A stretch of DNA of 58,062 bases, taken from the IMG/VR virus record IMGVR_UViG_3300029120_000017; one strand, 5' to 3'. How positions within the stretch are numbered: the stretch's first letter is position 1; each line of letters opens with the position of its first letter. The notes under the pieces were generated by a model. It ran no database searches. It had not been told where the DNA came from and saw only the letters and a program-made list of their open reading frames with translations. Origin of the DNA: a virus. The translations under genes and the position numbers were made by a program. Below are positions 3,726 through 30,286 of the stretch, in pieces.

Positions 3726-5133
3726 ATGTATTTTGTTTGTTTTCTTCCATATTTTCTTGCTTGATTTGCTTCAAAATTTCTTCTGGATTTGAAACAAGCG
3801 GATTTTGTCTTATTCCTTCCTCCTGCGACATCGTTGCCTTTCCTCCTGTAGAGCTGTTTATTAATTGCAATGTCTCAGCATCATTCTTTGGAATATACGG
3901 CGTAAATCTCGGCTTCACCCTCAACCTGTCAACGTCATTCTTTGGCATCGCTTTTATGCTCGTGGAATATCCGTTTTTGATGATATTGAAGCGCCTTGTA
4001 AACATCTCACCGAAGGTTTCAATTTTCTGCCCAGCCTTTAAATGAGGGTCGGTAAACATCAGTCTGATTGCTGCACCACTGGTGTTATTGCCAAGTGTTT
4101 TCATATTCTCAAAGGAGATGTCAGGTGTCTGTGTGTAGCTGAAGATTATGTTTATCAAATTAGCTATTTCCATTCTTCTACTCTCTGGGGCGCTATCCCA
4201 AGAAACAACCTTCATATCTGTTTCATTGTCTCCTTGGTAAACTCGTCCGACTTCTCCCTTGTCGGCGAATCCCTTCATCCGTCCTTTGAAGAAATATGTC
4301 GGTGAGCCAAAATAGTCGTTTGTATCGCCCCAATCGGAAATACTATTTTCTAATCGTTCAATGGTTTTTTGAACTGCTTCCCATTCTGTTTCTTCCTGCA
4401 TATAATAGACAAGAGGGATTTTTGTAAATCCATGAGGCTTTGCGCTGCGCAATGTTAATCCTGCTTCACTTTCATCGCTTGCAAATTTGTAGAGCGTGGA
4501 TGATGTGTAAACGTCAAAGCAATGCGTTTGCGCTCCTGTTTCATCTTTAAGGACATATTCGCGTGCAAATCCGTCCATCTTGTCGTAATTGTCGTAATGA
4601 GGGTACAATTTATCACCATACAACGGAGAAAGCAATTTCACGCGCATTTCCTTTTCGTTGTCTTCGTTTGTGGCAATATACCAAAGCTCAGCGCATTCAC
4701 AAGCACGAAACAAGCACCTCGACAATTTTTTGTTGAAATACTCTTCTTTGTTATCTTCAAGGATATTCAATACCTCATCAAATAATTTTGCTTGCATTTC
4801 ATCGGCTTCACCCTTAATGCTGTATGTTACAGGAATCGTGAAAAGAAAGCCCACACTTCTTTCTATTATCACTCTTTGACAAGGAACAGCAACACGGCAA
4901 CGGTGTCTCACTTCGGTCTTATAGGCGATGTTGCCGTTTTCGTCTTTTTTATCTGTCGGAGTTTTAACAATCTTATCCTTTCTGTATTGCGTGTCAAAAA
5001 TCAAATGACAATTAGGGTCGTACTCCCGTTCTGTAACCTCCAGCGGTTTTTTAAGTGGTTTCTTTCTCGCTGTCAGCAGAGAATAAATCTGGTAAGGGTC
5101 TCCGACTGATAAAATTTCTTGTATGGTCTTCAT
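3709..5133 (-). CDS. portal protein (SPP1 Gp6-like by appearance)
   Basis: 474-aa ORF immediately downstream of the large terminase gene; size and position typical of portals; family recognised by eye only. Confidence 0.65.
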   Translation of the reverse strand: MKTIQEILSVGDPYQIYSLLTARKKPLKKPLEVTEREYDPNCHLIFDTQYRKDKIVKTPTDKKDENGNIAYKTEVRHRCRVAVPCQRVIIERSVGFLFTIPVTYSIKGEADEMQAKLFDEVLNILEDNKEEYFNKKLSRCLFRACECAELWYIATNEDNEKEMRVKLLSPLYGDKLYPHYDNYDKMDGFAREYVLKDETGAQTHCFDVYTSSTLYKFASDESEAGLTLRSAKPHGFTKIPLVYYMQEETEWEAVQKTIERLENSISDWGDTNDYFGSPTYFFKGRMKGFADKGEVGRVYQGDNETDMKVVSWDSAPESRRMEIANLINIIFSYTQTPDISFENMKTLGNNTSGAAIRLMFTDPHLKAGQKIETFGEMFTRRFNIIKNGYSTSIKAMPKNDVDRLRVKPRFTPYIPKNDAETLQLINSSTGGKATMSQEEGIRQNPLVSNPEEILKQIKQENMEENKQNTFGSYE

Positions 5134-6927: not shown

Positions 6928-7506
6928 CTATTTTATAAGATTGAAAAATTCATTACGCAATTGTGCATCATTTTTAAAAGCTCCTACAAGGTATGATGAT
7001 TTCATTTTGCCTTTTTTCTTTGCTCCACGCATAGACTTGCATAAATGTTCGCCCTCCATTACAAGAGCGACACCAAGAGGTGGATATTTAGATTTAAGAG
7101 CATCAGAGAGAATGTCTACAATTTCTCGTACAAGTCTTTCCTGTATTTGTAATTTTGCTGCACAATAATCTACAACGCGACCAATTTTAGAAATTCCAAG
7201 AATCCGACCTTTAGGATTGGGGATGTAAGCGAACCAGTAGCGGCCAAAAAATGGCATCATGTGATGTTCACACATTGAATAGAAGTCGCCTTCATCTATA
7301 ATCATATTTTCATAAGTTATGCCATCTTTCCCATTTTCGAATGTTGTTATTTTCGGTTTTTGTGAAGCATCGTAACCTCTGAATATTTCATTATACATTC
7401 TGGCTATTCTATCGGGCGTGCCTTTCAATCCTTCTCTGTTTACATCTTCCCCAATTAAAGATAAAATGCCTTTTATATGGTTTTCTATTTGTTCTTTCTT
7501 ATTCAT
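6928..7506 (-). CDS. folE: GTP cyclohydrolase I (FolE)
   Basis: IGEDVNREGLKGTPDRIARMY and CEHHMMPFFG...GISKIGRVVDY...QIQERL motifs; ATG 7506 overlaps the queE stop as ATGA. Confidence 0.9.
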   Translation of the reverse strand: MNKKEQIENHIKGILSLIGEDVNREGLKGTPDRIARMYNEIFRGYDASQKPKITTFENGKDGITYENMIIDEGDFYSMCEHHMMPFFGRYWFAYIPNPKGRILGISKIGRVVDYCAAKLQIQERLVREIVDILSDALKSKYPPLGVALVMEGEHLCKSMRGAKKKGKMKSSYLVGAFKNDAQLRNEFFNLIK

Positions 7507-8090
7507 CTTACATTTATAATTTTCTGCGTCTGTAATGAAATCGCCCATTGTGGGTGAGAAAGGCAATAATTTACAACACCCTTGATGTTGTTTTCTGTTT
7601 TTTCTTTATCTTTCAAATCACATGGTTGCAAGTAATAATTATCAGCAATAATCCTTTTATACTTATCCATGCAAGTTTTTTCGGCATCGAATACAACTTT
7701 TAATTCATCAATATGCTCTAAGGCAATATTCGCTTGATTGCAATATTCAAACTTTGGCGAGCATGTTATCCAATTTGCAAAAGAAAGTGCCTTATTGTTT
7801 CGCGTGCCATTTGTTTCAATATGAATATATTTTCCTTCTTCACATAACATGAGCATGAATTTTTCTGTTATCTGCAAAGTAGGCTCGCCGCCTGTCAGAA
7901 CAACATGCTTTGTCGGATATTTGATAATTTCTTGAATTATCTCTTCATCTGTGTACTCTTTATACGATTCGTGCTTTGTATCGCAAAAAGGACATTTTAG
8001 ATTACATCCAGCAAAGCGAATAAATACACAAGGAGTTCCAGTAAAAGCACCTTCACCTTGTATTGAATAAAATATTTCGTTAATCCTCAT
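7503..8090 (-). CDS. queE: 7-carboxy-7-deazaguanine synthase (QueE, radical SAM)
   Basis: N-terminal EIFYSIQGEG...FIRFAGCNLKCPFCDT cluster motif, 195 aa. Confidence 0.9.
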   Translation of the reverse strand: MRINEIFYSIQGEGAFTGTPCVFIRFAGCNLKCPFCDTKHESYKEYTDEEIIQEIIKYPTKHVVLTGGEPTLQITEKFMLMLCEEGKYIHIETNGTRNNKALSFANWITCSPKFEYCNQANIALEHIDELKVVFDAEKTCMDKYKRIIADNYYLQPCDLKDKEKTENNIKGVVNYCLSHPQWAISLQTQKIINVR

Positions 8091-8096
8091 TTTCTT

Positions 8097-8426
8097 TTAT
8101 TTTTCATAGATTGCGGTATTACCCTCACTTTCTTGTACAATTGCTTTATAGCACATTGGTATCTGCTCTACAATCCATTTTGCAATATTTTCTGCTGTTG
8201 GATTGAAGGGTAACAGCTCATTAAAATTTCCATGGTCAAGAAATCCATGAATTTTATTCTTTACATGCTTAAAGTCAATAACCATGCCATCAGAATTAAG
8301 ATTTTCCGCTTTGCAGAAAACGGTCACAATCCAATTATGACCATGCAAATTTTCGCATTTGCTTTCATAAGAAAGATTGAGGTGATGACATCCTGCAATC
8401 TCCATTCGTTTTGTTACGTAGTACAT
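8097..8426 (-). CDS. queD: 6-carboxy-5,6,7,8-tetrahydropterin synthase (QueD)
   Basis: 109 aa T-fold protein with CHHL...LHGHNW metal-site motifs, adjacent to queE. Confidence 0.85.
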   Translation of the reverse strand: MYYVTKRMEIAGCHHLNLSYESKCENLHGHNWIVTVFCKAENLNSDGMVIDFKHVKNKIHGFLDHGNFNELLPFNPTAENIAKWIVEQIPMCYKAIVQESEGNTAIYEK

Positions 8427-8437
8427 ATTTTATTTAT

Positions 8438-10036
8438 TAAAGTTTCGCAAGTGAAAATTCACAAGCGTGATTTAACGTAATTTTGGAATAAAAAAGGCTC
8501 TGAAGTTTGTATAACTCACAGAAAATGAGTATCTTTATAATCGCTAAACAATAAAGATAAAACTTCAAAGCCGTGAGCAAAGATACAAAAATTATTTCAG
8601 ATCTGCGAAGCTTTTTCGCAAAGAATAACGATAATCGTGCAATTAAGTGCATTATGGGTGTGATGGAACATATAAATATACGCTCCAGCCAGATTGGAGT
8701 AGAGAAGAAAGAGAACTGCAAGTTCACCACTTTGCAGGTACTCAACCTCCTCATGCTCTTCCCGTTCTTCGTAGTCAAGAATGCGAGTCGATACTCCAAC
8801 TCGTCCTTGAGTAAATTGTTCAATTGTGATAAAGACATGTTCTATCGTTTTATGAATGATGGCAACGTCAAGTGGCGCAAGTTACTATATGCAATGAATC
8901 TTCAGCTGATAAAGAAGATATCAAGCAGCACAACTGTTCATCATAACAAGCCAGTTTGTTTGATTATTGATGATACTGATGCACCTAAGACTGGTATGAC
9001 GACCGAACTCATAGGAAGAATCTGGTCTCATGTTCATCAAAAGAGCATCCTTGGTTATAAGTGTCTGACCATGATGTTGTCCGATGGCGTTAGCCAGCTC
9101 TTTCTCGATTTCTCTCTTCATGGTGAGGAGGGAAAGGACAAGCAAAAGGTTCAGGGACTTACTGCTAAGCAACGCAAAGCTCGCTATACCGAGGACCACG
9201 AAGGGCAAGCGGTAAAAGAGCGTGTGGATGAATATCTGATGAAGAAGACAGACAAGGCCATAGATATGGTCAAGTATGCCATCAAGCGAGGTGTTCGCTT
9301 TGATTACTTGCTCGTAGATAGCTGGTTTACAAACACTAAGCTTGTGCGTTTCATTTCCGGCAGACATATCAAGTGTCACCTGTTGGGCATGATTAAACTG
9401 GGCAAAACCAACTATGCAACGAAGCATGGTAAGATGAATGCCAAGCAAATCATCAAGCACCTGCAAAAGGAAAAGGCATGCAAACACAACAAAATACTTC
9501 GTTGTACCTATTGTACAATGGACGTTAAGTTGGATGGTGTGCCAGTCCGTTTGTTCTTTTGCAAACGAGGACGCAAGGGAAACTGGAATGGGTTGTTGAC
9601 CACAGACCTTTCTCTTAGCTTCCTTGAAGCGTATCGTATTTATGCCAGACGATGGGCTACCGAAGTTGCATACAAGGATTGTAAGACCTTGCTGAACTTT
9701 GGCAAATGCCAGTCTGTACATTTTGCCGCTCAAATTGCTAGCTTCACTTTGACAATGATGCAGTATAACATCTTGTGTACAGTGAAGAGATTTGAAGCGT
9801 ATGAAACCATCGGTGGTCTCTTTACAGAGGTTACCAATGACACTCTCGAGTTGTCCGTAACGGACAAGATATGGGCTATTATTTTGGACTTCGTTCTGGA
9901 GGCTGCAGAGCGTTACTCTATAGATGCCACAGAGTTACTGGCAGATTTCATCGAAAGTAATCCTGTTGCCCATACGCTACGTAATATGTATATTTATAAA
10001 CAAGCAAGTTGATATTTATTCACTTGCGAAACTTTA
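8438..10036 (+). mobile_element. IS4-family insertion sequence, apparently intact
   Basis: Perfect 18-bp terminal inverted repeats taaagtttcgcaagtgaa (8438-8455; reverse complement at 10019-10036). 8-bp direct repeat TTATTTAT at 8430-8437 and 10038-10045. Single DDE transposase ORF inside. Confidence 0.9.
8573..10012 (+). CDS. IS4-family DDE transposase
   Basis: 479 aa with CLIIDDTD, YLLVDSWF and YRIYARRWATEVAYKDCK (Y-R-E-K) signature blocks. Confidence 0.9.
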   Translation: MSKDTKIISDLRSFFAKNNDNRAIKCIMGVMEHINIRSSQIGVEKKENCKFTTLQVLNLLMLFPFFVVKNASRYSNSSLSKLFNCDKDMFYRFMNDGNVKWRKLLYAMNLQLIKKISSSTTVHHNKPVCLIIDDTDAPKTGMTTELIGRIWSHVHQKSILGYKCLTMMLSDGVSQLFLDFSLHGEEGKDKQKVQGLTAKQRKARYTEDHEGQAVKERVDEYLMKKTDKAIDMVKYAIKRGVRFDYLLVDSWFTNTKLVRFISGRHIKCHLLGMIKLGKTNYATKHGKMNAKQIIKHLQKEKACKHNKILRCTYCTMDVKLDGVPVRLFFCKRGRKGNWNGLLTTDLSLSFLEAYRIYARRWATEVAYKDCKTLLNFGKCQSVHFAAQIASFTLTMMQYNILCTVKRFEAYETIGGLFTEVTNDTLELSVTDKIWAIILDFVLEAAERYSIDATELLADFIESNPVAHTLRNMYIYKQAS

Positions 10037-23226: not shown

Positions 23227-24126
23227 TTATTTCAGTTTTATTAAAATACTACTTGAAGTTTTTGTTTTCGTGATGTATTGCTCATACATCTGCGGATAAT
23301 CATTTTTGAATGCCTTTGAATCAAAACATAATCGATAAGTTTCTGGCTTTCTTGTTATGGAAATTCTCTGTCCGTCATATTTCTTTATATCATGTTGCAT
23401 CATAATAGCCAAGATTCCTTCTTTGAGCTTATCGTATTGCGCCTTATAAAATTCCATCGCTTCTTTATATTCAATTAGCGCTGCCTCCGCGCGATTGATG
23501 TCTGGCATCATTGCTTCGTCAACGGTGGTGACTGACAACGCTTCTTCCGTATAAAGCAACTTCTTGACATCTTCAATAGATTTTCGCTCTACTTCAACGA
23601 CCTTATATTTGTCTTCCCTAAACCAAAGAGCATAGAGTTTTTTGACCTCTACATCTGGATTGATAAGGTTAAAGAAATAAGCATAAATAGACAATTGCCA
23701 ACTTACGTATTCCTCATTAAGATGGTACGTGGTCTTCACATCACCGAGAATAACGCCATCATCTTCTACATAAACCTTATCTATTGCTGAAGCATATTTT
23801 TCGCCGTCAGTGATAAGATATTCGCTTTGCAGATGGTTGGCAAGGAAAGGAAATTCCGTCTGTGCCTTCATGTAGTTTTGAAGTTCTTGGCATTCATTCG
23901 TTATCAATCCTACTTCATCATACAATTCAAGTATATTGTGAATCCTCGTGCCTCTTGTCGCTGCACGTTGCAACACCTCTTCGGGAACATCTTTATACTC
24001 ATCGGGGAAGGCTCGTTCTTTGAGCCTTCCCGTGATTCCGTGCAGTACTTCTCCATCCTTGGTGCAATAGGTGTGGCTCTCTGCATCAAACAGGATTCCG
24101 CTGTCATTCAGTTTTATCTTCTTCAT
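23227..24126 (-). CDS. PD-(D/E)xK family exonuclease (recombination partner of Erf)
   Basis: 299 aa; IDKVYVEDDGVILGDVKTTY...WQLSIYAYF (D...D-x-K...Q..Y) pattern; position between erf and ssb. Confidence 0.6.
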   Translation of the reverse strand: MKKIKLNDSGILFDAESHTYCTKDGEVLHGITGRLKERAFPDEYKDVPEEVLQRAATRGTRIHNILELYDEVGLITNECQELQNYMKAQTEFPFLANHLQSEYLITDGEKYASAIDKVYVEDDGVILGDVKTTYHLNEEYVSWQLSIYAYFFNLINPDVEVKKLYALWFREDKYKVVEVERKSIEDVKKLLYTEEALSVTTVDEAMMPDINRAEAALIEYKEAMEFYKAQYDKLKEGILAIMMQHDIKKYDGQRISITRKPETYRLCFDSKAFKNDYPQMYEQYITKTKTSSSILIKLK

Positions 24127-24226
24127 CGTCCTCGTCTTTATTGGCTATATGTTGTGCATATACAACAACGGTTAACATCGCCACCATAATCAGCATGGCG
24201 ATAATACAAAATGCAATTCTTATCAT
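24104..24226 (-). CDS. 40-aa single-TM peptide with acidic tail (putative)
   Basis: ATG 24226 overlaps the erf stop as ATGA; MIRIAFCIIAMLIMVAMLTVVVYAQHIANKDEDDEEDKTE; below the ORF-track cutoff. Confidence 0.3.
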   Translation of the reverse strand: MIRIAFCIIAMLIMVAMLTVVVYAQHIANKDEDDEEDKTE

Positions 24227-24873
24227 TTCGGGTATTTTTTAGATGCCTCTTGAACGGCCTCACTAAATCTCGGATTGGATTGCAAGTCCTTATTCTCGTT
24301 CCAAATCGTTGTAAGTGTCTTTCTGCTTCTCGCGTGGCTTATATCTTGCAGGAGCAACATCAAACGCTCTTCATCGACCTGCGGCGCTTGCTGTTTCACT
24401 TGCTTTGGCGCTTGTTTTGGCTTGGCCTGGCTCACCGTTGCTGTTGTACTCTGTTGTGCAGCTTGTACCTGTTGCGCGTATTCATTCGTATCTGCATCTT
24501 TAGTGTCGTCAATAGCAAAGAGATTACCAAGCGCATATTTCTTGGCATAGCTCATTGCAGCACCTGTAATCTGCGAACCATCCATACCTTTTTTCGTTTC
24601 TTCCTCGCGTGCCATACCGCTTGCACTCTCGCTTGTTTTCCCATCCGAAATCGTCACCGTGCATTCTACATAGATGCGATTTAGATGTTCGCTGATTTTC
24701 GATTCCGTCACAAGCGTCAAACCCATCTCGCGGAGGAAGGGTTTTGTCGCGGCCAATATGCTTTCTGCGCTTCTATAACGATAGTTACCAAACTTGTTAT
24801 ACAAGTCCTTCGGCGCTTCTAACTTTGTCTGAATCAGATTCAGTTTTTCGTGTAATGTCATTTTATTTTCCAT
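24223..24873 (-). CDS. erf: Erf-family single-strand annealing protein
   Basis: ATG 24873 (MENKMTLHEKLNLIQTKL...); FGNYRYRSAESILAATKPFLREMGL and GAAMSYAKKYALGNLFAIDD blocks typical of ERF proteins. Confidence 0.75.
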   Translation of the reverse strand: MENKMTLHEKLNLIQTKLEAPKDLYNKFGNYRYRSAESILAATKPFLREMGLTLVTESKISEHLNRIYVECTVTISDGKTSESASGMAREEETKKGMDGSQITGAAMSYAKKYALGNLFAIDDTKDADTNEYAQQVQAAQQSTTATVSQAKPKQAPKQVKQQAPQVDEERLMLLLQDISHARSRKTLTTIWNENKDLQSNPRFSEAVQEASKKYPK

Positions 24874-24883
24874 TGTGTTTGAA

Positions 24884-24924
24884 TTTAAAAAGCAAAGCCG
24901 TCCGTACTTGCAGGTACGAACGGC
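24884..24924 (-). terminator. hairpin plus T-tract (rho-independent terminator-like) immediately upstream of erf
   Basis: Stem 24897-24907 / 24914-24924 (one mismatch), followed on the minus strand by tttgcttttt. Confidence 0.45.
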
Positions 24925-25077
24925 CACCTTAGTATGAATTATGAGTATGACAAGCGGAAGAACTAATTATCCCAATCCGTTGCGACCGCCCCTGTTAACT
25001 ATAGTCTCCTACCATTAACAAGTTGAATATTTGATAGAAATATCTTTCTTATATATAGCATAAAATAAACGTAATTG

Positions 25078-25326: not shown

Positions 25327-25677
25327 TTATTCTGCGTCACTTTTTCCATTACTGCTTGAACCTGCCACCCATCGCCTTACTGGACTTAATGTCATGATTG
25401 CAGAAGGGTAATCGTTGCTTATTATACTCTCAAAAACAATTGTCATCCGTCCTTCCATACCTTCTTTAATTGCAAGATGAATATCTCTGCTTCGTCTATT
25501 TAAAGCATTAATTTTATTAAGACGATGTCTGAGGTCAGCTAAAAAAATATCTAATGTATATTCCTCGTCAGTTTCTACAAGTAAACCCTTGAAGCCCGAC
25601 AAATATTCTCTAAGCATCTTTTCTTTGCTGTTTCTAACATTACATGAAATCGAAACAACATAATAATATTTCTTCAT
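25327..25677 (-). CDS. hypothetical protein
   Basis: 116-aa ORF. Confidence 0.55.
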   Translation of the reverse strand: MKKYYYVVSISCNVRNSKEKMLREYLSGFKGLLVETDEEYTLDIFLADLRHRLNKINALNRRSRDIHLAIKEGMEGRMTIVFESIISNDYPSAIMTLSPVRRWVAGSSSNGKSDAE

Positions 25678-25697: not shown

Positions 25698-25797
25698 TGG
25701 TGCAGGTGAGAGGAATCGAACCTCTTATCTCACATATTCTATTTAATCATACAACCATGGAACTTTAAAAACATGAGACCCAGTCTCAATCACCTGC
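25698..25797 (-). ncRNA. tRNA-like element A (100 nt, encoded CCA); acceptor, D-arm and T-arm canonical, about 47-nt AT-rich non-canonical middle
   Basis: 5' gcaggtg pairs with 3' cacctgc-a-cca. D-arm tgag/actgggt/ctca. T-arm agagg/ttcgatt/cctct. I could find no 5-bp/7-nt anticodon arm. Confidence 0.5.
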
Positions 25798-25902
25798 GTG
25801 TAGCTCGCTGCGTAACGGAAATCTTCTCACCCATAACTTTTCACAGTATCATTTGCGATGCAACGCTTTGCACCTCGTGACGCGAACCGCAGCGAGCTTG
25901 TA

Positions 25903-26250
25903 TCAATAAGGAAAATCGTACATCAGCGATTGTTCATGCTCCTCGTACAATTTTGCCTCTCTGTCAAGTTTTTCGTACGCCTCTCGTTTGAGAGTTGCGT
26001 AAAGCCCTGAATATTCGTTGAGGATAAGGATTTTCAATTTCACATCCTCCTCATCTTCTTCTATGTTATAGACGGAGCAATCACTACATTGCCAATCCTC
26101 ATCAACGATTAATTCGACTTCGTAATTCTTCTTGCATATCTCCATGTAGAAGTTGGCAGTGAGATAACCGCGTGTGCGGCAGATACATTGCTCTTCCGCA
26201 TCCTGCATCAGCAATTCTCTTATCTCAGCAATTCTCTTAATCTTATTCAT
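25903..26250 (-). CDS. hypothetical acidic Cys-containing protein
   Basis: 115-aa ORF between tRNA-like elements A and B. Confidence 0.5.
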   Translation of the reverse strand: MNKIKRIAEIRELLMQDAEEQCICRTRGYLTANFYMEICKKNYEVELIVDEDWQCSDCSVYNIEEDEEDVKLKILILNEYSGLYATLKREAYEKLDREAKLYEEHEQSLMYDFPY

Positions 26251-26267
26251 ACAACAAGGTTTTAAAT

Positions 26268-26354
26268 TGGCTCAGATAGGTGGTCTCGAACCACCTGTGC
26301 CGCCAAGTCCAAACGCAAACGAAAGGTGAATGCGCCAGCTATCGGCATATCTGA
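26268..26354 (-). ncRNA. tRNA-like element B (87 nt, encoded CCA), non-canonical interior
   Basis: 5' tcagata pairs with 3' tatctga-g-cca. T-arm ggtgg/ttcgaga/ccacc. The interior folds as a 6-bp stem (incl. two G-U pairs) with a 13-nt loop instead of a normal anticodon arm. Confidence 0.45.
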
Positions 26355-26376
26355 GGAGTATATGAAGTTGATTATG

Positions 26377-26407
26377 TAGTTACATGATAGTTACATGGTA
26401 GTTACAT
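26377..26407. repeat. three tandem 11-bp direct repeats TAGTTACAT(G/A)(A/G); a further TAGTTAC copy lies near 26477
   Basis: tagttacatga tagttacatgg tagttacat read directly; the 11-bp period equals about one helical turn. Confidence 0.8.
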
Positions 26408-26583
26408 AATTTCTCGTGGCAGCTCACGCGGTATGGATGATGCCGAACCTCATCCGTTTACAACTTCACGACATAGATAGTTACTATCACGTGATACCAC
26501 TCATTCGGGGATTTGGGCCTTGCTACTTCAATTTTCGCTTCCGTACCCCTTTGCCAATATGTCAAAGAACACTTTTCGCTTTG

Positions 26584-26660
26584 TGAGCTGTGGCGGAATC
26601 GAACCGCCAACACCAAGCATAACACCAGAACACAAACCTTTTGGTGTAACCATTCAGCTC
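26584..26660 (-). ncRNA. tRNA-like element C (77 nt, no encoded CCA), non-canonical interior
   Basis: 5' gagctga vs 3' acagctc (6 of 7 pairs). T-arm ggcgg/ttcgatt/ccgcc. The interior has a 6-bp stem acacca/tggtgt with a 14-nt loop and no D-arm. Confidence 0.4.
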
Positions 26661-26788: not shown

Positions 26789-26974
26789 TCAATATTGTGT
26801 CATCCAGAACTTCTTTAAATCCTTGCCAAGAAAAAACTTCCGTCCGTTTATCTTGCTGAATCTCGGCTTTAAAAGGCAGCTATTAACCCATCTTCTAATA
26901 GTGTCTCTGTGAACTCCAAGAACCTCAGACGCTTGGCACACCGTGTATTTTGAATTATCTGCTATTTGTGGCAT
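26789..26974 (-). CDS. xis: excisionase-like helix-turn-helix protein
   Basis: YTVCQASEVLGVHRDTIRRWV... typical of MerR/excisionase-type HTH; ATG 26974 (MPQIADN...). Confidence 0.55.
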   Translation of the reverse strand: MPQIADNSKYTVCQASEVLGVHRDTIRRWVNSCLLKPRFSKINGRKFFLGKDLKKFWMTQY

Positions 26975-27194
26975 TACTACCCTCATTGCTTGCTCCTTTC
27001 TCTTTTTCTCGTTTTACCTTATAAACCGTTGCTATCGTTACATTAAATGCGTTAGCAGTCATCACAATTGCATCATACGCCTTTGTTCCAAGATTCAACT
27101 CCCTTAAATAATAGGCATATATCTTATTATACCTCTCGATTGTCGCCTTCCTCCGTATCTCCGATGGTATTTGAATTAAACTTTTTCTTGCCAT
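26955..27194 (-). CDS. Cro-like or regulatory small protein, divergent from the repressor gene
   Basis: 79 aa, first gene of the leftward operon opposite the S24 repressor. Confidence 0.45.
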   Translation of the reverse strand: MARKSLIQIPSEIRRKATIERYNKIYAYYLRELNLGTKAYDAIVMTANAFNVTIATVYKVKREKEKGASNEGSNATNSR

Positions 27195-27361: not shown

Positions 27362-28033
27362 ATGAAAGATAGACTACTTAAATTCATTAATTACAAAGGA
27401 GTTTCACAAAGACAATTCCTTCTTAAAGCAGGCTTGTCGACCAGCTATTTATCTGTTGTCAAAGATGATTTCGGTGTTTCCGCGTTGTTCAATATTTCAC
27501 AAAACTTTCCCGAGCTAAATATTGAATGGCTTAAAACTGGAAAAGGGGAAATGCTTAATAAAGGATTTGAAAACAACGACAATAACTTTGACAAGCTGTC
27601 TAATTTCTTCTTCGCTAACGGTGAGCAAAAGCCAATCATTACGGAGAGTATTGCTAAGATTCCTAACATTGACGTGTTGGAGCTTGTCAAAAGCGGAAAG
27701 GTTCAGAATCTGGAATACATGGGAGCATTTAATCAATTTCCACCTTTTGATTTCTATTTTAGAAATGATAGGGTATCAATGGAACCTCAATTTATGCGTG
27801 GGGATTTAATTGCGTTGTCAGCACTGCAAGAGAATGCGGTTATTGAAAGCGGCGCTCCTTATATAATAGACACAAAGAGTATTGGATTTATTTTCAGAAA
27901 CGTTTATGAGCGCGGCGATAAGTATGAATGCAAGGTTTCAAATCAAAAAAGTCAGTTGGAAGATATAAATATAGAAAAAAGCGATGTGATTAAAATTTAT
28001 CGTGTCGTTGGCTTAGTAAGAACAAATTTTTAA
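27362..28033 (+). CDS. CI-like repressor (N-terminal HTH, C-terminal S24 LexA-type peptidase domain)
   Basis: 223 aa; N-terminal KGVSQRQFLLKAGLSTSYLS; C-terminal RVSMEPQFMRGDLIAL (S-M-x-P...GD) autocleavage-type motif. Confidence 0.75.
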   Translation: MKDRLLKFINYKGVSQRQFLLKAGLSTSYLSVVKDDFGVSALFNISQNFPELNIEWLKTGKGEMLNKGFENNDNNFDKLSNFFFANGEQKPIITESIAKIPNIDVLELVKSGKVQNLEYMGAFNQFPPFDFYFRNDRVSMEPQFMRGDLIALSALQENAVIESGAPYIIDTKSIGFIFRNVYERGDKYECKVSNQKSQLEDINIEKSDVIKIYRVVGLVRTNF

Positions 28034-28380: not shown

Positions 28381-28417
28381 ATCCACTGGCAAAATTAATT
28401 GTCAGTGGATTTTTTTA
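28381..28417. terminator. bidirectional hairpin terminator between the convergent membrane-protein and integrase genes
   Basis: 10-bp stem 28381-28390 / 28401-28410 flanked by an A-run and a T7 run. Confidence 0.6.
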
Positions 28418-29633
28418 CATAGTCTATTACTTTCTTGATTGCTTGGTCAACCTTCTTTTCATTCCTTCTTATATATATATCTGCGATTTGGTATTGTGGC
28501 TTGTGCCCAAGAGCAGCATCAATAACAGCATCTGGAATATCAATGTCTGCGGCGATAGTCGCCCATGTGTGTCTTGCCCAATATGTCGTAAGATGTGGAA
28601 ACAGAGGCTTGAATATTTTTTCTTTCTTCACTCGTCCATATCTGTTTCTCACATTAATAATGTCTGTCTTTCCTATTTTCTGTAAGTTCTTGTTTATCGT
28701 TCTAACGAAAGACCTTTTATCCTCATGTGTCTCTCCGAAGTTAAGCAGTTTCTTTTCTCCGCGATATTTTCGTATGAGCTTCATTGCTTCGTTTGGAATT
28801 TTAAGACTGCAAAGAACTCCTGTCTTACTCCTTCGGTATGTTATTCTCTGCTCTTCGTTTGGGTGCGGCAAATCAAGCAAATCAACCATGTTTATTCCTG
28901 CGCAATAAAAGGAGATTAGGAAAATGTCAAGATATTTTTGCTGATAATCTTCGCATTTAAAATTCATCAGTGATAATAATTCCTTGATTGTCAAAGAGCG
29001 TTTTTCAGTCTGTTCAGATTTTATTCTGAATTTCCTGAATGGGTAAAATTCTTGTGCTACATAATCTTCACGAATTGCCTCGTTGAATAAGGCGCGAAGA
29101 TTGCGCAAATGAATGGAGCGCGTGTTTACTGAATTTCCTTTTGCCTGCATCCAAGTATCGAAATCGACTAACCATTTGTAATCAATCTCCTCAAATGATA
29201 AATTATCAATATCGCAATAATTGCCAATCTTAATTATTGTGCCTTCGTAAACCTCTTTTGTTCTATCTTTTGTCTTCCTTGAAATGAATATCTTGAAATA
29301 TTCTTTGATATAATGTGGCCGTTCTTCTTCTGTTTCTTCGCGAGGGTTTATTTGTTCACGTATATCTTTGGCCGTCATCTTGTCAAGATTCTTAGATGAA
29401 CTTAATAAGATGATTTGCATCCTAAGATATTCCAATTTCGATTTTAAAACTTGATTCAATCTTTTTGCCAGAGGAGTGTTAATAACCTCTCCGTTCAGCC
29501 ATTCCTCCTTTCTTAAATATACAGATGTCGGAATCATGGAGGATGTATTATTGTGCCGAATTACAATTTTTACACAATATTTTCCAGATTTATTTTTGGC
29601 CCTTGCATCGAGGTACAGATTAATTTTTGCCAT
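28395..29633 (-). CDS. int: tyrosine integrase
   Basis: ATG 29633 (MAKINLYLDARAK...); C-terminal ARHTWATIA...LGH...IYI catalytic-type motifs; next to attP. Confidence 0.9.
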   Translation of the reverse strand: MAKINLYLDARAKNKSGKYCVKIVIRHNNTSSMIPTSVYLRKEEWLNGEVINTPLAKRLNQVLKSKLEYLRMQIILLSSSKNLDKMTAKDIREQINPREETEEERPHYIKEYFKIFISRKTKDRTKEVYEGTIIKIGNYCDIDNLSFEEIDYKWLVDFDTWMQAKGNSVNTRSIHLRNLRALFNEAIREDYVAQEFYPFRKFRIKSEQTEKRSLTIKELLSLMNFKCEDYQQKYLDIFLISFYCAGINMVDLLDLPHPNEEQRITYRRSKTGVLCSLKIPNEAMKLIRKYRGEKKLLNFGETHEDKRSFVRTINKNLQKIGKTDIINVRNRYGRVKKEKIFKPLFPHLTTYWARHTWATIAADIDIPDAVIDAALGHKPQYQIADIYIRRNEKKVDQAIKKVIDYVKKSTDN

Positions 29634-29769
29634 TTGCACGGATTTTGCACGGTTCTACATTTTGATGGATTGCACGTGTTTTGCACGGATTTTCGGCAAA
29701 TTTCGGCATAATACGGCATAATACGGCATAAATTTATGGCTTTAACATTTGAATATAGAGACAAAATAA

Positions 29770-29804
29770 CCGCTGACAATTAGCAAATGTCTAATTATCA
29801 GCGG
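29770..29804. terminator. 14-bp hairpin (one mismatch) with T-rich flanks on both strands, inside attP
   Basis: ccgctgacaattag / ctaattatcagcgg with a 7-nt loop. Confidence 0.45.
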
Positions 29805-29815
29805 TTTAATTATTG

Positions 29816-29860
29816 TCGGGGTAGCGGGATTCGAACCCACGACCCCCTGCTCCCAAAGCA
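29816..29860 (-). other. 45-nt 3' fragment of a tRNA-Pro(UGG)-like sequence (attP core, not a complete tRNA)
   Basis: The minus strand reads tgc-tttggga-gca (loop with anticodon TGG), gggggtc, T-arm gtggg/ttcgaat/cccgc, acceptor 3' strand taccccg + A. No matching 5' half upstream. Confidence 0.7.
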
Positions 29861-29938
29861 TTAGTCTTACTCTTGTAAGTGTATGATATTTAGTCGTTTA
29901 TCTCTTTAGATAAAATCACTTGCACGGATTTTGCACGG

Positions 29939-30286
29939 TTAGGCGTTATTAGACATTGATTGTACATATCTGTACACCTTATCACAAGTCGCATCCTCAT
30001 CGTCAAAGAAGAAGGAATGCGCTGCTAAGATAATCATTTCATCCGACATAATCTTGTTGAAATCTGCATAAGCGTAATTAAAAGCGACATATTTATCCCA
30101 GTCCGTAACACAATCTTTAAATTTCAGTTTTTCTGTTGCTTTTAGGATTTCATTCACTGACCAGTGAGCGCCTTTGTGCTCTGCTCCGTTTTTATCCGTG
30201 TAGAATATTCTTTTAATTGCTTCGGCTGCACTTTCCCCATTGAAATGAGAATCTGATTTGTTTGAGATAGCAATATATAATTTCAT
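29939..30286 (-). CDS. hypothetical protein
   Basis: 115-aa ORF; its stop overlaps the right-arm repeat of attP. Confidence 0.55.
   Translation of the reverse strand: MKLYIAISNKSDSHFNGESAAEAIKRIFYTDKNGAEHKGAHWSVNEILKATEKLKFKDCVTDWDKYVAFNYAYADFNKIMSDEMIILAAHSFFFDDEDATCDKVYRYVQSMSNNA

What the first reader, a model, noticed from the sequence alone, without database searches (positions are those of the whole stretch)
25698..26660. Three tRNA-like elements with canonical acceptor and T-arms but aberrant anticodon regions
Seen on the minus strand:
- A (25698-25797, 100 nt): a perfect 7-bp acceptor, D-arm, GGTTCGATTCC T-arm and encoded CCA, but a 47-nt AT-rich middle.
- B (26268-26354, 87 nt): a 7-bp acceptor (8 bp if the flanking C-G pair is counted), a T-arm and encoded CCA. 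The centre folds as a 6-bp stem (incl. two G-U pairs) with a 13-nt loop.
- C (26584-26660, 77 nt): a 6/7 acceptor and a T-arm. The centre is a 6-bp stem with a 14-nt loop and there is no D-arm.

I could not fold a normal 5-bp/7-nt anticodon arm in any of them. All three sit in a 1.1-kb region with only one ORF.

Inference: possible explanations are decayed tRNA genes, tRNAs with expanded or interrupted anticodon loops, RNase P/Z processing punctuation, or decoys for host anticodon nucleases or tRNA-targeting defences.
Basis: partly seen in the sequence, partly recalled or inferred. Interest (0 to 1): 0.65.

Follow-up and report, generated by a model that had tools for sequence, protein, structure and literature searches.

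The report
Anticodon-less tRNA mimics in a prophage
Three conserved RNA elements in the early operon of a gut Bacteroidales-type temperate phage keep the top half of a tRNA (acceptor stem, T arm, a GG-bearing 'elbow' loop) but have no anticodon arm, so they cannot decode; they most likely act as handles for the host's tRNA-processing enzymes, and they are one example of a wider, undescribed habit of related phages.

Summary
A (25698-25797), B (26268-26354) and C (26584-26660), all on the minus strand, each have a 6-7 bp acceptor stem stacked on a canonical GGTTCGAnnCC T arm, and none has an anticodon arm. Default ARAGORN and Rfam call no tRNA. Shuffled windows give 0.03 strict and 0.165 relaxed elements, against 2 strict plus 1 relaxed observed.

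All about 60 related gut-metagenome phage contigs carry the trio, apart from contigs that end inside the region. Stems are kept by nine compensatory pair changes and many G-U intermediates. The centres are free to change: B's central loop ranges from 8 to 40 nt. The encoded CCA is not conserved.

These are therefore selected, non-decoding tRNA top-half mimics, not decaying genes and not odd decoders. The best reading is that they are cut by RNase P and RNase Z inside the early transcript, like plant-mitochondrial t-elements. A and B end 20 and 17 nt before start codons. A trans-acting decoy or scaffold role is not excluded.

More distant Erf-encoding phages carry same-strand arrays of 4-6 tRNA genes whose anticodon loop alone is deleted, expanded or replaced. 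I found no description of this class. I rate it a new variant of a known kind, interest 0.65.

The parts
26584..26660 (-). Element C, a D-armless tRNA-like element. Acceptor 26660-26655 / 26590-26585 (6 bp). Linker AATGGTT 26654-26648. Central 7-bp stem 26647-26641 / 26616-26610 enclosing 24 nt. T arm 26609-26591 (6-bp stem, loop TTCGATT). A73 at 26584, followed by CAA.
   Evidence: Two sequence versions (C1 and C2) share the fold. Three pairs covary: acceptor pair 5 and central-stem pairs 4 and 7. The outermost T-stem pair alternates U-A and U-G. A mosaic breakpoint lies at the T arm.
26268..26354 (-). Element B, a three-way junction. Acceptor 26354-26348 / 26278-26272 (7 bp). Central 5-bp stem 26347-26343 / 26302-26298 closing a variable 40-nt loop that contains TGG. 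T arm 26295-26279. G73 at 26271. CCA 26270-26268. The ATG of ORF115 lies 17 nt downstream.
   Evidence: Four covarying pairs and 99.3% of cells paired. The loop is 8 nt in L004, 19-20 nt in L055/L056 and 40 nt in the window.
25698..25797 (-). Element A. Acceptor 25797-25791 / 25708-25702 (7 bp). A 6-bp hairpin with TGG loop at 25788-25774. A 48-nt AU-rich middle at 25773-25726: its 5' third is indel-hypervariable and its 3' two-thirds are sequence-conserved. T arm 25725-25709. A73 at 25701. CCA 25700-25698. The ATG of ORF116 lies 20 nt downstream.
   Evidence: Two T-stem pairs covary, plus a third in L175 with its G-U intermediate in L020. 99.6% of cells are paired.
25802..25898 (-). Structured spacer E. 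An 11-bp closing stem AGCTCGCTGCG/CGCAGCGAGCT encloses about 75 nt. It lies 4 nt after the ORF115 stop codon and 4 nt before the 5' end of A. It is a candidate 3'-end-protecting hairpin for the upstream mRNA after RNase P cleavage.
   Evidence: MFE -35.3 kcal/mol, z = -2.0. There is one compensatory change in the closing stem in L055/L056 (read directly from the sequences). The role is inferred.
26416..26500 (-). Structured spacer D between C and B. A 13-bp helix with a 2-nt bulge closes two hairpins, one with a GGTTCGGCA loop. It is the most conserved stretch of the region.
   Evidence: It is 92% identical to L056, where ORF115 DNA is 76%. Pair 190/250 of alignment A1 shows U-G, U-A and C-G. 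The function is unknown and the z-score is only -1.6.
25903..26250 (-). ORF115, a conserved 115-aa protein of unknown function, flanked by B upstream and E+A downstream.
   Evidence: Homologues are 65-99% identical and of equal length. There is no credible family match. The AF2 model is poor (pLDDT 60).
25327..25677 (-). ORF116, a 116-aa protein of unknown function that starts 20 nt after A. It diverges fast among relatives (54-100% aa identity).
   Evidence: The AF2 model has pLDDT 81, and there is no PDB fold match (best E = 0.4).

Best explanation
A, B and C are tRNA-derived 'top-half' mimics that selection keeps as RNA. Each retains the coaxial acceptor/T-arm helix of 12 bp, a canonical T loop, and a GG-containing loop or linker that could form the tRNA elbow. 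The anticodon arm has been lost or replaced by variable sequence, so they cannot decode.

They lie on the coding strand of the phage's early-left operon: HTH_17, C, D, B, ORF115, E, A, ORF116, then Erf, exonuclease and SSB. I infer that they are co-transcribed with it. I infer that host RNase P cuts at their 5' ends, and that RNase Z or 3' trimming plus the CCA-adding enzyme acts at their 3' ends.

In this reading they punctuate the polycistronic transcript. Cleavage 3' of B and A would leave ORF115 and ORF116 mRNAs with short, unstructured, A/U-rich leaders of about 17-20 nt. Cleavage 5' of A would leave ORF115 mRNA ending in hairpin E. The excised tRNA-like RNAs would be stable by-products, or products in their own right.

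Shown here: the architecture, the strand, the conservation, the compensatory changes, the dispensability of the centres, and the placement.

Inferred: transcription, cleavage by RNase P and RNase Z, and the consequences for the mRNAs.

My confidence that they are selected, non-decoding tRNA mimics acting as RNA is about 0.85. My confidence that cis processing is their main job is about 0.45.
For: **Architecture, and failure of tRNA models.**

**Non-chance.**

**Presence in relatives.** The trio is present in the relatives recovered, apart from contigs that end inside the region and one locus with no A match.

**RNA-level selection.**
- A: 18 pairs, 99.6% of cells paired, 2 covarying pairs; no shuffle reaches the observed covariation score (0/500).
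- B: 17 pairs, 99.3% paired, 4 covarying pairs (0/500).
- C: 19 pairs, 95.5% paired, 3 covarying pairs (0/500).
- Slid-partner controls give only 31-59% paired.
- B is only 58% identical to its L056 homologue, yet every stem is kept.

**Strand.** Frequent U-G pairs would be C-A mismatches on the other strand. Examples are A acceptor pair 6 in 9 of 20 variants and the outermost C T-stem pair in 5 of 10.

**Only the top half is constrained.**
- The B loop is 8, 19-20 or 40 nt.
- The 5' part of A's middle carries indels.
- The interior of C differs between the C1 and C2 versions.

**Placement.**
- The elements are on the same strand as every neighbouring gene.
- A and B end 20 and 17 nt before start codons.
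- Hairpin E lies 4 nt before A.

**RNase Z compatibility.** The 3' CCA is often replaced by CTA or CAA, which suits RNase Z plus CCA addition. A host tRNA-Leu gene next to an integrated relative also lacks an encoded CCA.

**Precedent.** Plant-mitochondrial t-elements are non-canonical cloverleaves with the GGTTCRANYCC motif. Their ends coincide with mRNA termini made by RNase P and RNase Z (PMC1920247). A 7-bp acceptor stem is the major determinant for RNase P cleavage of a bacterial tRNA-like RNA (PMC4201824).
Against: - No transcript or cleavage data exist. Processing is inferred from shape alone.
- One tRNA-like element would suffice for a cut. Related phages carry 4-6 in a row in ORF-free stretches of about 1 kb. 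That looks more like genes for RNA products than like punctuation.
- The 3' two-thirds of A's middle is sequence-conserved, and A overall is 83% identical to L056 against 61-76% for the ORFs. A pure processing signal does not explain this.
- C is not followed by an ORF. It is followed by about 230 nt of conserved non-coding RNA.
- The -1/73 bases of B can pair (C-G). On general knowledge of RNase P, this could shift the cleavage site.
- Covariation rests on few independent lineages: the main clade against L055/L056, C1 against C2, and L175.
Confidence: 0.45

Rival explanations
1. The excised RNAs are the point. They act in trans as tRNA-shaped, non-decoding molecules. One version is decoys or sponges for host proteins that grip the tRNA body, such as tRNA-targeting defence toxins, acceptor-end modifiers, or processing and modification enzymes. 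The other version is natural 'tRNA scaffolds' that give stability and processing to a cargo placed where the anticodon arm was.
For: - More distant Erf-encoding phages have same-strand arrays of 4-6 tRNA-like genes. 163 hits lie on the Erf strand and 0 on the other, and 37 of 60 loci have at least one upstream of Erf.
- Several of these elements score above the Rfam tRNA threshold at 37-58 bits, yet the anticodon loop is cut to 3-4 nt or expanded.
- One body occurs both with a 4-nt loop (70 nt) and with a 63-nt insert in its place (133 nt).
- Paralogues share D and anticodon stems but have wholly different, perfectly paired acceptor stems.
- A's middle is sequence-conserved.
Against: - No binding partner or defence system is identified.
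- No RNA-related enzyme gene lies nearby.
- The middles show no complementarity to the phage genome above shuffled controls.
- B's centre is dispensable, so B carries no obligatory cargo.
- With no anticodon-loop mimic, the anticodon-nuclease decoy version is unattractive.
Confidence: 0.3
2. They are decaying tRNA pseudogenes, relics of a former phage tRNA cluster, with no present function.
For: - Related phages have tRNA-like genes at the syntenic place, ranging from near-canonical to very aberrant.
- A, B and C fall below all tRNA thresholds.
- A few variants carry single mismatches (A in L010; B in L016; C2 acceptor pair 6).
Against: - Nine compensatory pair changes, with 95.5-99.6% of stem cells paired.
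- A is more conserved than the neighbouring protein genes.
- The trio is retained in the contigs that span the region.
- Damage is confined to the anticodon region, whereas decay should hit all arms.
Confidence: 0.07
3. They are functional decoding tRNAs with unusual anticodon arms: intron-containing, expanded-loop or D-armless.
For: - ARAGORN -i models A as tRNA-Phe(AAA) with a 17-nt intron.
- ARAGORN -ps80 gives B as Thr(CGT) and C as Thr(GGT).
Against: - The forced models have mismatched stems.
- A's putative anticodon stem-loop carries 1-6-nt indels among close relatives.
- B's putative anticodon hairpin is deleted in L004 and replaced in L055/L056.
- On general knowledge, the only introns known in bacterial tRNA genes are self-splicing ones of hundreds of nucleotides, so no known mechanism would remove a 17-nt insert.
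Confidence: 0.03
4. They act as DNA: attachment sites for integrases, recombination hot spots that shuffle modules, or origin or packaging signals.
For: - The conserved module runs from C's T arm to just past A, so mosaic breakpoints coincide with the elements.
- On general knowledge, tRNA 3' halves are classic att cores.
Against: - Both acceptor strands are present and change together. G-U pairs show strand-specific RNA pairing.
- The phage's own att-like tRNA/tmRNA 3' fragment lies elsewhere, at about 29810-29850 next to the integrase.
- A role as breakpoints may be a side effect of conserved sequence.
Confidence: 0.05

Closest known systems
Plant-mitochondrial t-elements (tRNA-like processing signals; PMC1920247)
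   Same: - Non-canonical cloverleaves that keep the acceptor stem and the GGTTCRANYCC T arm.
- They are embedded in longer transcripts next to ORFs.
- Their ends define mRNA 5' and 3' termini through RNase Z and RNase P.
- The excised element can be stable and receive non-templated C, CC or CA.
   Different: - They occur in an organelle, not in a phage or bacterium.
- There is no sequence homology; the likeness is analogy of mechanism.
- Cleavage is shown experimentally for t-elements and only inferred here.
mascRNA / MEN-beta tRNA-like elements of MALAT1 and NEAT1 (from my own knowledge)
   Same: - A tRNA-like element without decoding function is cut by RNase P to create the 3' end of the upstream RNA.
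- That 3' end is protected by an adjacent structure.
- The E hairpin 4 nt before A mirrors this layout.
   Different: - These are eukaryotic nuclear lncRNAs.
- The protecting structure there is a triple helix.
Bacterial and phage YrlA Y RNAs (Rfam RF02553; PMC4201824)
   Same: - Non-coding RNAs with a tRNA-like domain (T arm, D arm, acceptor-like stem).
- They are substrates for tRNA modification enzymes.
- With a 7-bp acceptor they are also substrates for RNase P and CCA addition.
- They also occur in phages.
   Different: - YrlA is encoded beside Ro60/Rsr and has a Ro-binding helix.
- No Ro60/TROVE gene was found among the ORFs scanned here.
- There is no YrlA hit in the window.
tmRNA tRNA-like domain
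   Same: An acceptor and T arm, a D-loop analogue without a stem, and a long helix in place of the anticodon arm. This is the topology of C.
   Different: - There is no G3-U70, no tag reading frame and no pseudoknots.
- ARAGORN tmRNA mode and the Rfam tmRNA models find nothing beyond the T arm.
Murid gammaherpesvirus 68 vtRNAs / TMERs, and the engineered 'tRNA scaffold' for RNA expression (from my own knowledge)
   Same: - Viral or artificial tRNA-shaped RNAs that are not used for decoding.
- They recruit tRNA processing (RNase Z, RNase P, CCA addition) to release or stabilise an attached RNA.
- In the scaffold, the cargo replaces the anticodon arm.
   Different: - One is a eukaryotic virus with Pol III transcription; the other is a laboratory construct.
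- No defined cargo function is known here.
C4 antisense RNA of phages P1 and P7 (Rfam C4; from my own knowledge)
   Same: A small regulatory RNA in a temperate phage's immunity and early region, matured by RNase P from a longer transcript.
   Different: - C4 acts by loop complementarity to a downstream target.
- No such complementarity was found here, and there is no Rfam C4 hit.

Membership tests
Canonical tRNA (Rfam RF00005 / ARAGORN) | 7-bp acceptor stem abutting a 5-bp T stem with a T-loop of consensus TTCRANY and G53-C61 | tested here: met
   Met by A and B. C has 6 + 6 bp.
Canonical tRNA (Rfam RF00005 / ARAGORN) | 5-bp anticodon stem with a 7-nt loop (U33, purine 37) | tested here: not met
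   None is found in A, B or C. The candidate regions are not conserved.
Canonical tRNA (Rfam RF00005 / ARAGORN) | Score at or above the family threshold | tested here: not met
   There is no RF00005 hit even at E <= 10 on the 1.8-kb region.
tRNA-Sec (RF01852) | 8+5 (bacterial) acceptor/T helices, 6-bp D stem, long variable arm, UCA anticodon, score >= 47 bits | tested here: not met
   A scores 26.8 bits. Only the acceptor (7 bp), the 6-bp hairpin and the T arm align. The anticodon arm is absent.
tmRNA | tRNA-like domain with G3-U70, plus a tag ORF and pseudoknots | tested here: not met
   (ARAGORN -m finds none). Position 3-70 is A-U (A), A-U (B) and G-C (C).
YrlA / bacterial Y RNA | Rfam RF02553 match, and a neighbouring Ro60 (TROVE) gene | tested here: not met
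   no YrlA hit in the window; no TROVE domain in about 50 ORFs scanned. Small ORFs were not all scanned.
t-element-like processing signal (functional class, not a homologous family) | Non-canonical cloverleaf with the GGTTCRANYCC motif inside a longer transcript | tested here: met
   The motifs are GGTTCGATTCC (A, C) and GGTTCGAGACC (B). The elements are on the same strand as the flanking ORFs.
t-element-like processing signal (functional class, not a homologous family) | Element ends coincide with mapped RNA termini; cleavage by RNase P / RNase Z | not testable with these tools
   This needs RNA-seq or RACE, or in-vitro cleavage assays.
attP tRNA fragment | Only the 3' part of a tRNA gene, identical to the host attB, next to the integrase | tested here: not met
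   A, B and C have both acceptor strands, which covary. They lie 1.7-3.9 kb from the integrase gene. A true 3'-only fragment sits at about 29810-29850.
C4-type antisense RNA | Loop sequences complementary to a target in the same operon | tested here: not met
   The best complementarities equal those of shuffled queries. Host targets were not testable.

The most novel reading that the evidence does not exclude
A, B and C are the most derived members of a widespread, undescribed class of phage genes in gut Bacteroidales-type temperate phages. These are tRNA bodies in which the anticodon loop alone has been deleted, expanded or replaced. They are expressed early from arrays next to the Erf recombination module.

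In this reading they act in trans. They could be non-cleavable, non-decoding tRNA decoys or inhibitors of host tRNA-directed immunity or tRNA enzymes. Alternatively they could be natural tRNA scaffolds that deliver small RNA cargos.
Probability: 0.3. Interest if true: 0.85.

Novelty: new variant of a known kind. Interest (0 to 1): 0.65.

Why it matters
Phage tRNA genes are usually explained by codon supply or by replacing tRNAs that host defences destroy. Here the tRNA shape is preserved by selection while decoding capacity is removed. In these phages, therefore, something other than translation needs the tRNA body.

If the elements are processing punctuation, this would be a bacterial and phage counterpart of mitochondrial t-elements. 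It would show how Bacteroidales phages, whose hosts do not rely on Shine-Dalgarno pairing (from my own knowledge), shape early mRNAs.

If they act in trans, they would be a new class of RNA-based phage counter-measure or regulator, made from a scaffold that biotechnologists reinvented independently.

Either way, standard annotation misses them: default ARAGORN and Rfam return nothing in this window. Similar elements may therefore be common and uncounted in viromes.

Tried and rejected
- **DNA similarity to 50,697 GenBank phages:** no match for the region. No cultured phage carries the related array.
- **Genome-contig scan with a 17-mer from A:** only chance hits in unrelated phyla. The pattern was too short for that collection, and the host species stays unidentified. 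The Bacteroidales assignment rests on three things: the integrase domain types, TerL at about 39% identity to Parabacteroides and Bacteroides phages, and a TAnnTTTG-type -7 box that I read in L002.
- **Viral contigs and metagenome scans with conserved motifs:** the same clade only.
- **Antisense hypothesis:** complementarity of the three middles to the whole phage genome is no better than for shuffled queries.
- **A fourth tRNA-like element ('D') that I drew by hand at 26500-26427:** rejected. Its acceptor-like pairing is broken in 7 variants. A 13-bp helix fits the variation better.
- **Whole-leader RNAalifold fold:** it produced implausible long-range pairs and was not used beyond D.
- **ORF116 and ORF115 as possible RNA partners:** there are no Pfam or PHROG families. 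The ORF116 model (pLDDT 81) has no PDB fold match. The ORF115 model is too poor to search.
- **Ro60, RNA ligase, CCA-adding or RNase genes in the window:** none found.
- **Literature searches for phage anticodon-less tRNA-like RNAs:** seven searches found no description. A 2023 catalogue of viral structured RNAs mentions tRNA-like candidates only in general terms, and its supplement is not held.
- **MAFFT alignments of full-length B and C:** these mis-registered the stems. Pair counts were therefore made on sequences with the variable loops replaced by GAAA and by position-anchored parsing.
Full report
**Context**

The 58-kb window is a complete or nearly complete temperate phage genome of Bacteroidales type. 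It carries the following genes:
- a tyrosine integrase with Phage_int_SAM_5 and Arm-DNA-bind_5 domains (28395-29639, minus strand);
- a divergent S24-type repressor (27362-28033, plus strand);
- an early-left operon on the minus strand, with an HTH_17 protein (26789-26986), Erf (24223-24927), a PD-(D/E)XK exonuclease (23227-24126) and an SSB-like ORF;
- portal, large terminase, capsid, holin and endolysin genes elsewhere.

Its large terminase is about 39% identical to those of Parabacteroides and Bacteroides phages. The finding lies between the HTH_17 gene and Erf, on the coding strand.

**The observation**

All three elements exist as described.
- A has a perfect 7-bp acceptor, the T arm AGAGG-TTCGATT-CCTCT, A73 and CCA. 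It also has a 6-bp hairpin with a TGG triloop and a 48-nt AU-rich middle.
- B has a perfect 7-bp acceptor, the T arm GGTGG-TTCGAGA-CCACC, G73 and CCA.
- C has a 6-bp acceptor, a 6-bp T stem, A73 and CAA.

Standard finders do not return tRNAs:
- ARAGORN with default settings finds nothing in the window.
- Rfam at gathering thresholds finds nothing.
- In E-value mode only A matches, to tRNA-Sec at 26.8 bits against a threshold of 47, and the whole anticodon region is unaligned.
- ARAGORN produces cloverleaves only with the intron option or with thresholds lowered to 80%. Those have mismatched stems.

A purpose-written scan required a T stem with G53-C61, a TTCRA loop and an abutting acceptor. 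It finds two strict and three relaxed elements in the window. In 200 dinucleotide shuffles the means are 0.03 and 0.165, and none reaches the observed counts. The three elements lie within 1 kb on one strand.

**Relatives**

- The 115-aa ORF between B and A recovered 22 IMG/VR contigs.
- A motif scan of metagenomes added 16.
- Exact-protein look-ups added a dozen more, including two divergent contigs, L055 and L056, in which ORF115 is only 65-68% identical.
- The contigs that span the region carry C, B and A in the same order. One locus gave no A match, and several contigs end inside the region.
- One record title names a human gut metagenome.

**Evidence for selection on RNA structure**

Position-anchored pair counts on all distinct variants gave these results:

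| Element | Pairs | Covarying pairs | Cells paired |
|---|---|---|---|
| A | 18 | 2 | 99.7% |
| B | 17 | 4 | 99.6% |
| C | 20 | 3 | 96.4% |

The formal counter gave the same picture, with 99.6%, 99.3% and 95.5% of cells paired. No shuffle out of 500 reached the observed pairing or covariation score. Only 31-59% of cells paired when partners were slid by 1-3 columns.

Concrete compensatory changes:
- B acceptor: TCAGATA/TATCTGA becomes TCCGATG/CATCGGA.
- B T stem: GGTGG/CCACC becomes GGCGG/CCGCC.
- B central stem: TGCCG/CGGCA becomes TTCCG/CGGAG.
- A T stem: AGAGG/CCTCT becomes GAAGG/CCTTC. In L175 it is AGGGG/CCCCT, and the G-U intermediate is seen in L020.
- C central stem: CACACCAT/ATGGTGTG becomes CACATCAT/ATGATGTG in L003.

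Abundant U-G pairs fix the functional strand as the minus strand.

Segment identities to L056 are D 92%, A 83%, ORF115 76%, ORF116 61% and B 58%. B diverges in sequence but not in fold. A is better conserved than the proteins.

The caveat is that the compensatory events trace to few lineage splits.

**What is not conserved**

- The centre of B is dispensable. L004 carries a natural 32-nt deletion that leaves a 55-nt element: acceptor, a 5-bp stem with the loop ATAGTTGG, and the T arm. L055 and L056 have 19-20-nt loops, and the window has 40 nt.
- The 5' third of A's middle carries 1-6-nt indels among close relatives. This removes the anticodon stem-loop that ARAGORN -i proposes.
- C exists in two versions about 65% alike in their 5' halves. 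They share the fold but not the interior sequence. The break between two alternative upstream immunity modules falls at C's T arm.
- The encoded CCA is present in only 4 of 16 B variants, is CTA or TCA in 3 of 20 A variants, and is never present in C.
- Each element keeps a TGG in the position of the D loop. I infer from this that a tRNA-like elbow can form. That is not shown.

**Interpretation**

Constraint falls on exactly those parts of a tRNA that RNase P, RNase Z and the CCA-adding enzyme recognise: the acceptor/T minihelix and the elbow. It does not fall on the part the ribosome and most synthetases read. That statement about enzyme recognition is general knowledge, and the importance of a 7-bp acceptor for RNase P is stated in PMC4201824.

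The placement supports a processing role:
- The elements share the strand of the operon.
- B ends 17 nt before the ORF115 start codon, and A ends 20 nt before the ORF116 start codon.
- A 97-nt hairpin domain, E, sits 4 nt after the ORF115 stop codon and 4 nt before A. Its 11-bp closing stem shows one compensatory change in L055.

This is the layout of plant-mitochondrial t-elements, where RNase Z and RNase P cuts at non-canonical tRNA-like structures create mRNA 5' and 3' ends (PMC1920247). From my own knowledge, it is also the layout of the MALAT1/mascRNA 3'-end module.

I therefore favour processing punctuation that also releases stable tRNA-like RNAs. Transcription and cleavage are inferred, not shown.

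**Why a trans-acting role stays open**

An Erf-based search brought in 60 more distant phage loci with Erf 40-60% identical.
- Of these, 37 carry one to six tRNA-like genes upstream of Erf. There are 163 hits on the Erf strand and none on the other.
- In loci such as L137, four lie head to tail in a 1-kb ORF-free stretch.
- Four of them pass the Rfam tRNA threshold at 37-58 bits. Their anticodon loops are reduced to 3-4 nt (CAUGU-UUCU-ACAUG; ACGCA-GGUA-UGCGU) or swollen to about 19 nt.
- One body occurs both as a 70-nt form with a 4-nt loop and as a 133-nt form in which a 63-nt insert replaces the loop.
- Paralogues share D and anticodon stems but have different, perfectly paired acceptor stems.
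- One lineage shows CAU, an 8-nt UUCCCCAU loop or UACCCCA on the same body.
- ARAGORN labels most of these 'tRNA-???'. In 572 kb there is a single call with a normal 7-nt anticodon loop.

The window's trio is thus the derived end of a continuum in which the anticodon loop, and only that, is ablated or replaced. Arrays without intervening ORFs, together with the sequence conservation of A's middle, are better explained if the RNAs themselves do something, as decoys or as scaffolds for cargo. I could not find a target:
- The middles show no complementarity to the phage genome above chance.
- There is no neighbouring RNA-related enzyme.
- ORF116 has a confident but unmatched fold.

**Rejected readings**

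- Pseudogenes: contradicted by the compensatory changes and the conservation.
- Decoding tRNAs: no conserved anticodon arm.
- DNA sites: both strands covary and G-U pairs are strand-specific. The real att-like tRNA/tmRNA 3' fragment is at about 29810-29850 beside the integrase.
- tmRNA, YrlA, tRNA-Sec and C4 membership: each fails a defining feature (see the membership table).

**Novelty**

tRNA mimicry for processing or decoy purposes is a known principle. Examples are t-elements, mascRNA, YrlA, the tmRNA tRNA-like domain, and herpesvirus vtRNAs. I found no description of anticodon-less tRNA-like genes in phage early operons, or of arrays of loop-ablated tRNAs in gut phages. No cultured phage in GenBank carries them. 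I rate this a new variant of a known kind, with interest 0.65. The interest would be higher if a trans-acting function were shown.

Noticed in passing
L115-L174 (e.g. L137 2339-2408, 4028-4097, 4194-4290, 4519-4584, 4686-4767; Erf at 5001): More distant Erf-encoding phages carry same-strand arrays of 4-6 tRNA-like genes with ablated or expanded anticodon loops. There are 163 hits on the Erf strand and 0 on the other. Most are called 'tRNA-???' by ARAGORN or missed altogether.
   Followed up: partly
L133 4038-4111, L172 1368-1441, L173 3384-3457; compare L125 4204-4278 and L116 4140-4212: One conserved tRNA body (acceptor GCGCAAG or ACGCAAG, C73, CCA) carries different loops in different phages: an 8-nt loop UUCCCCAU, a 7-nt loop UACCCCA, or a CAU anticodon. 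The 8-nt CCCC loop recalls +1 frameshift-suppressor tRNAs (from my own knowledge).
   Followed up: no
L137 4686-4767 (and orthologues): An 82-nt tRNA-like element with no recognisable anticodon arm has a G3-U70 pair in its acceptor stem. From my own knowledge, this is the alanine identity element.
   Followed up: no
L126 2651-2783 versus L137 2339-2408: The same tRNA body occurs as a 70-nt form with a 4-nt 'anticodon' loop and as a 133-nt form. In the longer form a 63-nt insert, itself containing a T-arm-like hairpin, extends the anticodon stem.
   Followed up: partly
window 26416-26500 (-): Spacer D is a three-way junction closed by a 13-bp helix. It is 92% identical to the most divergent relative, which makes it more conserved than any neighbouring ORF. 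There is no Rfam match.
   Followed up: partly
window 26377-26407: There is an 11-nt tandem repeat (ATGTAACTAyC on the minus strand) of 2.8 copies. Copy number varies from 1 to 3 among relatives, and the repeat is absent in L055/L056. It may be a protein-binding site.
   Followed up: partly
window 26555-26575 (-): GUUCUUUGACAUAUUGG just 3' of C matches the 5' end of the Rfam DUF2693 RNA model (16 bits against a threshold of 81). It may be a shared Bacteroidales-phage promoter or operator motif rather than part of that RNA.
   Followed up: no
window ~29810-29850 (-) and 29640-29940: An attP-like 3' fragment of a tRNA or tmRNA gene (GGTCGTGGGTTCGAATCCCGCTACCCCGA) with a terminator hairpin lies beside the integrase. 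It is flanked by repeated TATGCCGTAT/TTTGCCGAAA and (A)ATCCGTGCAA motifs, which may be arm sites. Some relatives (L019, L057) sit next to a host tRNA-Leu(TAG) instead.
   Followed up: partly
window 6928-8426 (-) and 8573-10012 (+): FolE, QueE and QueD (7-deazaguanine/preQ0 synthesis) are encoded next to an IS4-family transposase on the opposite strand. From my own knowledge, these genes are typical of phage DNA-modification modules. The insertion may have disrupted the rest of the module, and GC skew flips there.
   Followed up: partly
window 26610 region; L002 3350-3580: There is a mosaic breakpoint inside C. C1-type phages have HTH_17 and a 79-aa ORF upstream. C2-type phages have a divergent repressor, with a TAnnTTTG-like -7 box about 130 nt upstream of C and no ORF in between. 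The shared module ends just after A.
   Followed up: partly
L004 3526-3660, L009 and L022 equivalents: A roughly 110-nt insertion between the tandem repeat and B contains a strong hairpin (TTGCTCCCG...CGGGAGCAA). It is present in three relatives only.
   Followed up: no
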